Below, piece by piece: positions 18,922 through 31,832 of a stretch of DNA of 64,000 nt (the stretch's first letter is position 1; the number at the start of each line of letters is the position of its first letter). The stretch lies in the NCBI RefSeq assembly GCF_003018235.1, contig NZ_CP027437.1; one strand, 5' to 3'. The position numbers were made by a program, and so were the translations under genes. The notes under the pieces were generated by a model. It was not told the DNA's origin, did not search any database, and saw only the letters and a program-made list of their open reading frames with translations. The stretch comes from Escherichia coli (GTDB taxonomy: Bacteria; Pseudomonadota; Gammaproteobacteria; Enterobacterales; Enterobacteriaceae).

Positions 18922-19074
18922 GACCTCTCCTTTCCACCGTTCAATTTCGAAACAATGTTTCTAGTTTAGCGATTCATCAGCGCGTATCCCGTAGTCTGGC
19001 TCACAGAGTGACGAAAAACTGGGCAAAAACACGTGCTTATGCTTTGCTTAAAAAAACACCAATTGAGGAGTGCA

Positions 19075-19965
19075 ATGATGCCGCGTCTGACCGCTAAAGA
19101 TTTCCCACAAGAGTTGCTGGATTACTACGACTATTACGCTCACGGGAAAATTTCGAAACGTGAGTTCCTCAACCTTGCGGCGAAGTATGCGGTAGGCGGG
19201 ATGACGGCATTAGCGTTGTTTGATTTGCTCAAGCCAAATTATGCGCTGGCGACTCAGGTAGAGTTTACCGACCCGGAAATTGTTGCTGAGTACATCACGT
19301 ATTCTTCACCAAATGGTCACGGCGAGGTGCGGGGTTATCTGGTGAAGCCCGCAAAGATGAGCGGCAAAACGCCAGCCGTAGTGGTGGTGCATGAGAATCG
19401 TGGACTGAATCCGTATATCGAAGATGTGGCACGGCGAGTGGCGAAGGCGGGGTATATCGCCCTGGCACCTGACGGCTTAAGTTCCGTTGGAGGTTATCCG
19501 GGTAATGATGATAAAGGTCGTGAGCTGCAACAGCAGGTTGATCCAACCAAACTGATGAATGATTTCTTTGCCGCAATTGAGTTTATGCAACGCTATCCGC
19601 AAGCGACAGGCAAAGTGGGTATTACCGGATTTTGCTATGGCGGTGGCGTATCGAACGCGGCGGCTGTCGCGTATCCGGAACTGGCCTGCGCGGTGCCGTT
19701 TTATGGTCGACAGGCACCCACCGCCGATGTGGCGAAGATTGAAGCGCCTTTACTGCTGCACTACGCGGAACTGGATACCCGAATCAACGAGGGCTGGCCC
19801 GCTTACGAGGCGGCGTTGAAAGCCAATAATAAGGTCTATGAGGCGTATATCTATCCGGGGGTTAATCACGGATTCCATAATGATTCCACGCCCCGTTATG
19901 ACAAATCTGCCGCCGATCTTGCCTGGCAAAGGACGCTGAAATGGTTCGATAAATATCTCTCCTGA
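19075..19965 (+). CDS. yghX: Dienelactone hydrolase-family protein, intact
   Basis: 296 aa from ATG at 19075, preceded by RBS gaggag; alpha/beta-hydrolase motif GFCYGG. Confidence 0.75.
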   Translation: MMPRLTAKDFPQELLDYYDYYAHGKISKREFLNLAAKYAVGGMTALALFDLLKPNYALATQVEFTDPEIVAEYITYSSPNGHGEVRGYLVKPAKMSGKTPAVVVVHENRGLNPYIEDVARRVAKAGYIALAPDGLSSVGGYPGNDDKGRELQQQVDPTKLMNDFFAAIEFMQRYPQATGKVGITGFCYGGGVSNAAAVAYPELACAVPFYGRQAPTADVAKIEAPLLLHYAELDTRINEGWPAYEAALKANNKVYEAYIYPGVNHGFHNDSTPRYDKSAADLAWQRTLKWFDKYLS

Positions 19966-20046
19966 TAGGTTTATCTCTTACGGGATTACGTCTTAAACAA
20001 GCATGAAAAAATAGCGTGCGCAAAAGTCGTTCTTTGCCTAAAATAT

Positions 20047-20070
20047 CGCTATATATGGCAATATATAGCG
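20047..20070. promoter_or_regulatory. Perfect 24-bp palindrome (cgctatatat-ggca-atatatagcg) 14 bp upstream of yghW
   Basis: 10-bp arms with a 4-bp spacer read directly; the location suggests an operator. Confidence 0.4.
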
Positions 20071-20083
20071 AATGAGGTGAACG

Positions 20084-20371
20084 ATGAATAACCATTTTGG
20101 TAAAGGCTTAATGGCGGGATTAAAAGCAACGCATGCCGACAGTGCGGTTAATGTGACAAAATACTGTGCCGATTATAAACGCGGTTTTGTATTAGGCTAC
20201 TCACACCGGATGTACGAAAAGACCGGAGATCGCCAGCTTAGCGCCTGGGAAGCGGGTATTCTGACGCGCCGCTATGGACTGGATAAAGAGATGGTAATGG
20301 ATTTCTTTCGTGAGAATAATTCCTGTTCTACGTTGCGCTTTTTTATGGCCGGTTATCGCCTCGAAAATTGA
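20084..20371 (+). CDS. yghW: Small protein of unknown function (DUF2623-like)
   Basis: 95-aa ORF; position between yghX and hybO. Confidence 0.7.
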
Positions 20372-31591: not shown

Positions 31592-31832
31592 ATTAATCAA
31601 AATATTCAATATTTATATATTCCAATATTTATTCATTTCATATGTGAATGTATTAACCAGTGGAATACCTGTGTTTTGATTATTTCTAAAGGTTTTGAAT
31701 GAATGCTTATTATCTGATACACAAGAAATAACACTCTTTTTATCGTTAAAAAATGATATTTCACTTTGCCCACGCCGTTAAAGTCACTGATAATGCGTCC
31801 GTTCGTAAATTCAAAATGGCGTAATCTAATAT

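What the first reader, a model, noticed from the sequence alone, without database searches (positions are those of the whole stretch)
20047..20070. Perfect 24-bp palindrome immediately upstream of yghW
cgctatatat-ggca-atatatagcg has 10-bp perfect arms and a 4-bp spacer. It sits 14 bp before the yghW start and overlaps the likely -10 and RBS region. That geometry fits a dimeric regulator operator or an RNA hairpin occluding the RBS. yghW function is unknown and it lies next to the anaerobic hyb operon.
Basis: seen in the sequence. Interest (0 to 1): 0.35.

Follow-up and report, generated by a model that had tools for sequence, protein, structure and literature searches.

The report
ModE (molybdate repressor) operator at yghW
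The palindrome is real and deeply conserved, but it is an ordinary, already reported binding site for ModE, the molybdate-sensing regulator, sitting on the promoter of the small gene yghW.

Summary
The 24-bp palindrome exists as described. Its perfect arms extend to 11 bp, and no shuffle of the window produced even a ≤3-mismatch match.

It is the core of a 28-bp element (20045-20072) that matches the published E. coli ModE consensus ATCGNTATATA-N6-TATATANCGAT at 19 of 20 specified positions. That is better than the sites I located at modA, moaA, dmsA and napF.

The element lies just upstream of yghW in all 80 orthologous loci examined, and in Edwardsiella and Limnobaculum homologs. The flanking DNA and neighbouring genes differ between genera.

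A weight matrix built only from the yghW sites picked out the four classical ModE-target promoter regions and nothing else in 101 kb of E. coli DNA.

The arms vary independently at the consensus "N" position, so base-pairing is not what is selected. The RNA-hairpin reading is not supported, and the Shine-Dalgarno lies outside the stem.

In Salmonella, yghW is co-expressed with modABC. The box covers the predicted -10 and start site, as at modA.

Most likely mechanism: molybdate-bound ModE dimer represses yghW.

Kurata et al. 2013 (not readable here) already placed this locus (yghW/morA) under direct ModE control. Verdict: already known, low interest. What YghW (DUF2623) does during molybdate starvation remains open.

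The parts
20045..20072 (.). 28-bp ModE box, ATCGCTATATA-TGGCAA-TATATAGCGAA (the whole operator)
   Evidence: Matches 19/20 specified positions of the E. coli ModE consensus quoted in PMC545781. It is the only match with <=3 mismatches in the window, with 0/100 shuffles matching. Conserved in 80/80 orthologous loci.
20047..20070 (.).
20045..20055 (.). Left ModE half-site, ATCGCTATATA
   Evidence: 10/10 specified consensus positions. In most other genera this arm contains a canonical TATAAT at box positions 8-13.
20056..20061 (.). N6 spacer of the box (TGGCAA; TGACAA in K-12)
   Evidence: Non-conserved centre. It corresponds to the N6 of the published consensus.
20062..20072 (.). Right ModE half-site, TATATAGCGAA
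   Evidence: 9/10 specified consensus positions; only the last base differs.
20034..20039 (+). Candidate -35 hexamer TTGCCT of the yghW promoter
   Evidence: Shimada et al. 2014 list 'TTGCCT-17-GACAAT' as the constitutive sigma-70 promoter of yghW from genomic SELEX. This is a prediction; no TSS has been mapped.
20057..20062 (+). Candidate -10 hexamer GGCAAT (GACAAT in K-12), inside the box
   Evidence: It lies 17 bp after TTGCCT and implies a start near 20069-20070, inside the right half-site.
20040..20043 (+). Conserved A-tract immediately 5' of the box
   Evidence: 1.25-1.8 bits per position across 78 unique orthologous sequences. Its role is unknown.
20074..20079 (+). Shine-Dalgarno GAGGTG of yghW
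   Evidence: Read from the sequence. A conserved G-rich block follows the box in all orthologs.
20084..20371 (+). yghW, 95 aa, DUF2623: the gene that the box accompanies
   Evidence: ORF. Pfam PF11115, E 4.6e-53. Annotated as yghW in K-12.
20060..20088 (-). Candidate opposite-strand promoter, TTCATC(20088-20083)-17-TATATT(20065-20060); a possible morA promoter
   Evidence: Consensus scoring only. An antisense gene morA at yghW is cited from Kurata 2013. Its exact position was not available to me.

Best explanation
The palindrome is the core of a 28-bp operator for ModE, the molybdate-sensing, homodimeric transcription factor of E. coli. When molybdate is plentiful, the ModE-molybdate dimer binds the two half-sites ATCGnTATATA. 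The box covers the -10 element and the start site of the yghW promoter, so bound ModE shuts yghW off. When molybdate is scarce, ModE leaves and yghW is expressed together with the modABC molybdate transporter. This is the arrangement of the modA operator, whose start site lies at position 19 of its own box. Shown here: identity of the motif, its conservation, its linkage to yghW, and co-expression with modABC in Salmonella. Inferred: actual ModE occupancy at this site, the position of the yghW start site, and the sign of regulation. Because the box is symmetric it may also control an opposite-strand promoter (the published morA).
For: (1) The element matches the E. coli ModE consensus ATCGNTATATA-[N6]-TATATANCGAT quoted in PMC545781 at 19/20 positions. 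It is the only match with <=3 mismatches in 64 kb, with 0/100 shuffles matching.
(2) A symmetrised matrix built only from 49 unique yghW-upstream 28-mers, scanned over 101,369 windows of E. coli DNA, gave just six hits scoring >=5. These were yghW (twice) and one site each upstream of napF, moaA, dmsA and modA.
(3) The box is present upstream of yghW in 80/80 loci from Escherichia to Serratia (49 at 20/20). It is also present in Edwardsiella (18/20) and Limnobaculum (20/20) homologs, although DNA 5' of about -20 and the neighbouring genes differ.
(4) The only freely varying arm position (5/24) is the 'N' of the consensus. It varies independently in the two arms, with the same base preference in each.
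(5) In Salmonella, yghW belongs to a 'molybdate iModulon' with modABC, and it falls together with modABC in Std-ON cells.
(6) Cho et al. 2014 list a modA TSS whose upstream sequence places it at box position 19, with TATATT in the left half-site. Their RNAP ChIP region RNAP_1456 is centred on the yghW box.
(7) In 69/83 loci the best sigma-70-like -10 on the yghW strand starts at box position 8.
(8) Papers citing Kurata et al. [quoted passage not shown]
Against: No binding, footprint or reporter data for this site could be read, because Kurata 2013 is not in the library. No experimental yghW start site was found in the supplements that could be searched. In E. coli itself the ancestral TATAAT is TATATG, and three different weak promoters can be drawn, so the precise overlap with the start site is uncertain. 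As far as I recall, the published work attributes the ModE-dependent promoter at this locus to the antisense gene morA rather than to yghW. The expression evidence is from Salmonella, not E. coli.
Confidence: 0.9

Rival explanations
1. The ModE box mainly controls an opposite-strand promoter (the published non-annotated gene morA), and yghW is a bystander.
For: Kurata 2013 is cited for a yghW/morA overlapping pair under ModE control. In the E. coli window the opposite-strand candidate TTCATC-17-TATATT scores at least as well as any yghW-strand candidate. The box is symmetric, so it offers a -10-like sequence on both strands.
Against: The box stays 10-19 nt from the yghW ATG in 77/80 loci. DNA on the far side of the box is unconserved between genera, at about 0.04-0.7 bits per position, so no morA coding sequence there can be conserved. 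Opposite-strand promoter candidates are scattered (position 8 in 22 loci, 12 in 17, 15 in 15), whereas 69/83 agree on the yghW strand. yghW mRNA itself co-varies with modABC in Salmonella.
Confidence: 0.2
2. The palindrome acts as an RNA stem-loop in the yghW 5' UTR, stabilising the mRNA or controlling ribosome access.
For: The sequence folds well as RNA: -13.7 kcal/mol with z -4.7 in E. coli, and -29 kcal/mol in Serratia grimesii. It abuts the SD. A few symmetric changes occur at the outermost pair 1/28 (T:A 3, G:C 3).
Against: The SD is outside the stem. Pair 5/24 is Watson-Crick in only 28/60 unique sequences, which equals the expectation under independence, and the most common non-Watson-Crick state is C:A, which cannot pair on the yghW strand. 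The predicted start sites fall inside the box, so the mRNA would lack the left arm. The same motif functions far from any RBS at moaA, dmsA and napF. There is no Rfam match.
Confidence: 0.04
3. The site is an operator for a different protein, for example YghW autoregulating its own gene, or H-NS.
For: A small gene directly behind a perfect palindrome is typical of autoregulators. The element travels with the gene across families. The half-site TCGnTATAT resembles, from my memory, the H-NS high-affinity site TCGATATATT.
Confidence: 0.03
4. The site is an intrinsic transcription terminator on the minus strand, or a bidirectional one for yghX.
For: The consensus scan flags the minus-strand hairpin followed by TATTTTAGG. 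The corresponding A-tract on the plus strand is conserved.
Against: The stem has only 3 G-C pairs. No annotated minus-strand gene reads into it. There is no U-tract on the plus strand after the hairpin. In Serratia the A-tract is absent although the box is kept. The scan found 2 such sites against 1.2 expected.
Confidence: 0.03

Closest known systems
ModE operator of the modABC promoter (E. coli)
   Same: Same 28-bp span and half-site: GTCGTTATATT-GTCGCC-TACATAACGTT at K-12 795044-795071. Both lie directly upstream of the SD. In both, the left half-site carries a -10-like hexamer. The listed modA TSS is at box position 19.
   Different: The yghW box is a much better consensus match (19/20 against 16/20) and a perfect palindrome. 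The downstream gene is a DUF2623 protein of unknown function rather than a transporter. The yghW start site has not been mapped.
Upstream ModE sites of moaA, dmsA and napF (E. coli)
   Same: Same motif, recovered by the matrix built from yghW sites: 16, 17 and 18 of 20 consensus positions.
   Different: Those sites lie about 100-200 nt upstream of the start codon and, from established knowledge of these promoters, help activation. The yghW box lies on the core promoter, which predicts repression.
Archaeal ModE motif RTTATGT-N8-RCATAAY (Methanosarcina acetivorans)
   Same: An inverted repeat bound by ModE and shown by EMSA to be required for binding. It has a similar TTAT(A/G)T core and sits upstream of Mo-related genes.
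   Different: The arms are shorter, the outer CG is missing and the spacer length differs. It controls alternative nitrogenases.
LexA SOS box (CTGT-N8-ACAG)
   Same: An AT-rich palindrome that overlaps core promoters.
   Different: The outer determinants are CTG/CAG, not TCG/CGA, and the span is 16-20 bp. The yghW element does not fit (read from the sequence; the consensus is from general knowledge).

Membership tests
ModE operator (E. coli type) | 28-bp inverted repeat fitting ATCGNTATATA-N6-TATATANCGAT | tested here: met
   19/20 specified positions. It is the only match with <=3 mismatches in the window, with 0/100 shuffles matching.
ModE operator (E. coli type) | Same recognition pattern as sites in the promoter regions of established ModE targets | tested here: met
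   The matrix built from yghW sites returns only the modA, moaA, dmsA and napF upstream sites, besides yghW, in 101,369 windows. That these four are ModE targets rests on established literature, cited.
ModE operator (E. coli type) | Direct, molybdate-dependent binding of ModE | not testable with these tools
   Kurata et al. [quoted passage not shown]
ModE operator (E. coli type) | The controlled gene responds together with the molybdate regulon | tested here: met
   Literature only, and in Salmonella: yghW is in the molybdate iModulon with modABC, and it falls with modABC in Std-ON cells.
ModE operator (E. coli type) | modE is present in the genome | tested here: met
   modE (b0761) is annotated in K-12 next to modABC. 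It is not within this window.
ModE operator (E. coli type) | Repressor geometry: the box overlaps the -10 and the start site | tested here: inconclusive
   Predicted promoters place the -10 and start inside the box, and an RNAP ChIP region is centred on it. No yghW TSS was found.
Structured 5'-UTR RNA element (RBS-occluding hairpin) | Base pairing maintained by covariation | tested here: not met
   At pair 5/24, 28/60 pairs are Watson-Crick against about 28.5 expected by chance. All other core pairs are invariant and so uninformative.
Structured 5'-UTR RNA element (RBS-occluding hairpin) | The SD or start codon is sequestered in the stem | tested here: not met
   The SD at 20074-20079 lies 3' of the stem and is unpaired in the MFE fold.
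Intrinsic terminator | G+C-rich stem followed by a U-tract, downstream of a gene on the same strand | tested here: not met
   There is no U-tract on the plus strand. The minus strand has TATTTT, but only 3 G-C pairs and no upstream gene.
Autoregulated small DNA-binding protein with its own operator | The encoded protein has a DNA-binding fold | tested here: not met

The most novel reading that the evidence does not exclude
yghW (DUF2623), rather than the Escherichia-described antisense morA, is the ancient conserved target of this ModE box. The box is built into the yghW promoter in at least four families of Enterobacterales and is the best consensus match among the E. coli ModE sites compared here. 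That would make YghW a core molybdate-starvation protein whose role in molybdenum homeostasis is still unknown.
Probability: 0.55. Interest if true: 0.35.

Novelty: already known. Interest (0 to 1): 0.15.

Why it matters
As a sequence feature it changes little. The ModE consensus has been known for over twenty years, and this locus is already cited as being under direct ModE control. Its practical value is as a pointer. A tiny family of uncharacterised proteins (65 cluster representatives among 1.84 billion) carries a near-perfect ModE box in every member examined within Enterobacterales. YghW is therefore a good candidate for an unrecognised player in molybdate starvation, and the site is a convenient high-affinity ModE operator for reporters. 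It also warns against reading every perfect palindrome next to an RBS as an RNA switch.

Tried and rejected
RNA-structure reading: I folded both strands, searched Rfam (no match) and counted pair states in 60 unique orthologous sequences. It was rejected because there is no covariation and the SD is left free.

Motifs considered from memory and rejected on spacing or sequence:
- sigma-54 (GG-to-GC spacing off by one)
- sigma-28
- LexA
- NrdR box
- PuuR
- OxyR
- MntR
- LysR T-N11-A (the centre of symmetry falls between bases)
- H-NS high-affinity site (similar half-site, but it does not explain the 28-bp dyad)

Link to the hyb operon: rejected, because hybO adjacency is not conserved.

The RpoS SELEX peak listed next to yghW lies about 1.1 kb away, at gpr, once the coordinate versions are reconciled.

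TSS hunting: the Kim 2012, Cho 2014, Cappable-seq and ROSE supplements gave no yghW start. The stored files are truncated. The Salmonella iModulon supplements had no yghW entry.

Studholme & Pau 2003, Anderson 2000 and Kurata 2013 are not held.

Full report
**Observation.** The window around the finding is the E. coli yqhA–gpr–yghX–yghW–hybO region. The palindrome CGCTATATAT-GGCA-ATATATAGCG is at 20047-20070 as reported. Perfect complementarity extends one base further on each side, giving 11-nt arms at 20046-20056 and 20061-20071. Allowing three mismatches it is unique in the 64-kb window, and none of 100 dinucleotide-preserving shuffles contained a match. It ends 13 nt before the yghW ATG (20084). 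The Shine-Dalgarno GAGGTG (20074-20079) lies just outside it. K-12 MG1655 has GACA instead of GGCA in the spacer. The region is present in 5422 of 5426 complete E. coli genomes.

**Conservation.** I fetched 80 loci encoding YghW relatives from one genome per species. They cover Escherichia, Citrobacter, Salmonella, Klebsiella, Raoultella, Kluyvera, Kosakonia, Enterobacter, Lelliottia, Phytobacter, Shimwellia and Serratia, the last at about 50% protein identity.
- Every locus has the same element directly upstream of the SD.
- In register it is a 28-mer with consensus ATCGCTATATAAT-tt-ATTATATAGCGAT. Position 1 corresponds to window 20045.
- Most arm positions are invariant, whereas DNA more than about 20 nt upstream of the element carries almost no information.
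- The neighbouring genes differ between genera. hybO is downstream in some, yghX or gpr is upstream in others, and neither is present in Serratia, Shimwellia and Lelliottia. The element therefore tracks yghW itself.
- A profile search of 1.84 billion cluster representatives found only 65 family members.
- The most distant full-length members with usable contigs come from Edwardsiella (Hafniaceae) and from Limnobaculum and a Leminorella-like organism (Budviciaceae). They still carry the same core, 24-29 nt from the ATG. A GC-rich outlier has none.

**Hairpin or protein site?** The sequence folds well as RNA on either strand, but there is no Rfam match. The comparative data do not support selection for pairing.
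- The only arm position that varies often is pair 5/24. Its states among 60 unique sequences are C:G 24, C:A 19, T:G 6, C:T 4, T:A 3, T:T 2, A:T 1 and A:G 1.
- That gives 28 Watson-Crick pairs, against about 28.5 expected if the two columns vary independently.
- Both arms show the same base preference, C > T > A.
- The outermost pair 1/28 shows a few symmetric changes but more uncompensated ones.
- The sequences are phylogenetically related, so these counts are descriptive.
- This is the pattern expected for two half-sites read by a symmetric dimer.

**Identification.** The decisive lead came from the literature.
- In Salmonella Typhimurium, yghW is one of seven genes of a "molybdate iModulon", together with modA, modB and modC (PMC9764980).
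- It is also listed with modABC among genes down-regulated in Std-ON cells (PMC6173445).
- Rodionov et al. 2004 quote the E. coli consensus of the molybdate regulator ModE as ATCGNTATATA-[N6]-TATATANCGAT (PMC545781). This has the same 28-bp span and half-site, and its N falls on my freely varying position 5/24.
- The window sequence ATCGCTATATA-TGGCAA-TATATAGCGAA matches 19 of the 20 specified positions.
- Of the 80 orthologous loci, 49 match 20/20, 18 match 19, 10 match 18 and 3 match 17.

**Independent cross-check.** I built a symmetrised weight matrix from the 49 unique yghW-upstream 28-mers only.
- Only six windows scored ≥5, against a background mean of −72 and sd of 15.
- Two were the yghW copies, at 31.7.
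- One lies about 200 nt upstream of napF (27.9).
- One lies 201 nt upstream of moaA (25.6).
- One lies 99 nt upstream of dmsA (14.2).
- The last is GTCGTTATATTGTCGCCTACATAACGTT, 17 nt upstream of the modA ATG (5.1).
- These four genes are the classical ModE targets. That is established knowledge, and the primary papers are listed.
- Against the literature consensus these sites score 18, 16, 17 and 16 of 20. The yghW box is therefore the best match of the five.

**Architecture and likely mechanism.**
- Cho et al. 2014 list a modA TSS at 794285 (U00096.2), with the upstream sequence ending …GTCGTTATATTGTCGCCTA. This places the start at position 19 of the modA box and a −10-like TATATT inside the left half-site.
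- At yghW, 69 of 83 loci have their best σ70-like −10 at box position 8 (TATAAT in the left half-site), with a −35-like CTrGCCA about 18 bp upstream. That predicts a start near box position 20-21. Opposite-strand candidates are scattered.
- In Escherichia the central bases have changed. TATAAT has become TATATG, and Shimada et al. 2014 propose TTGCCT-17-GACAAT (20034-39 and 20057-62), which is still inside the box.
- The RNAP ChIP region RNAP_1456 of Cho et al. (3144613-3144963 in U00096.2) is centred on the box, within the ±2-nt uncertainty of my coordinate conversion.
- No mapped yghW TSS could be found in the truncated supplements that I could search.
- By analogy with modA, and consistent with co-expression with modABC, I infer that the ModE–molybdate dimer occludes the yghW core promoter. 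yghW would then be de-repressed under molybdate starvation. The binding itself and the sign of regulation are inferred, not shown here.

**What is already known.** Kurata et al. [quoted passage not shown] Two held papers cite it for an overlapping gene pair yghW/morA. I could not read the paper. From memory of its abstract, ModE targets were found by genomic SELEX, and morA is a promoter and short ORF on the strand opposite yghW. My scan finds only one ModE-type site in the whole 64-kb window, so the published ModE site at this locus must be this palindrome. In E. coli an opposite-strand promoter, TTCATC-17-TATATT, can indeed be drawn through the box. However, the tight and conserved linkage of the box to the yghW start, and the lack of conservation on its other side, argue that yghW is the conserved target.

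**Verdict.** The regulator is ModE. The RNA-hairpin and hyb-operon ideas are not supported. The feature is a member of a well-known class, at a locus already reported as ModE-controlled, so novelty is "already known" and interest is low. The remaining open point is the function of YghW/DUF2623 as an apparently core member of the molybdate-starvation response in Enterobacterales.

Noticed in passing
window 19033-19965 (+): yghX is an intact 310-aa ORF here, whereas K-12 MG1655 annotates yghX as a pseudogene. The window is therefore not K-12; the tested 175-bp stretch (19966-20140) is 100% identical to strain 118UI.
   Followed up: partly
window 19862-20095 (-): A 77-aa ATG ORF on the opposite strand starts inside the first codons of yghW, runs through the ModE box and ends in the 3' end of yghX. 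It is a possible location for the published antisense gene morA, whose coordinates I could not obtain.
   Followed up: partly
window 20056-20061; L001-L004: Within Escherichia the N6 centre of the box has turned over (GGCA, GACA, GTTT, TTGT, and a spacerless 28-bp perfect palindrome in E. albertii). This destroys the ancestral TATAAT and apparently moves the -10 into the spacer: promoter turnover inside a fixed operator.
   Followed up: partly
L072:1440-1506 (Serratia grimesii): The palindrome is extended to 19-bp perfect arms (CACAATGATCGCTATATAA...TTATATAGCGATCATTGTG; RNA fold -29 kcal/mol). This goes well beyond the ModE consensus and is not shared by other Serratia species.
   Followed up: no
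L057 (Enterobacter sp. JUb54), about 73 nt upstream of the yghW ATG: This is the only locus where the box sits far from the start codon (73 nt, against 10-23 nt elsewhere). That suggests an insertion between operator and gene, or a mis-placed start.
   Followed up: no
L084:1868-2368 and L082:1175-1324: In the Budviciaceae-type loci a DUF1543 gene lies next to the DUF2623 gene: downstream on the same strand in Limnobaculum, and a weak hit upstream in the Leminorella-like contig. This may be a recurrent neighbour of unknown meaning.
   Followed up: no
window 20040-20043 and orthologs (box positions -4 to -1): An A-tract immediately 5' of the box is nearly as conserved as the box in Enterobacteriaceae (1.25-1.8 bits per position), but it is absent in Serratia and at the modA operator. 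On the minus strand it gives the hairpin a terminator-like T-run.
   Followed up: partly
window 31609-31636: The AT-rich stretch ATATTTATATATTCCAATATTTATTCAT matches 15/20 ModE consensus positions but lacks both CG dinucleotides. It is most likely a chance match.
   Followed up: no
K-12 U00096.2 coordinate 3145934 (about 1.1 kb from the box): The RpoS genomic-SELEX peak that Shimada 2017 list between yghW and yghZ maps to the gpr/yqhI side, not to the palindrome. A table reader could easily misattribute it to yghW.
   Followed up: partly
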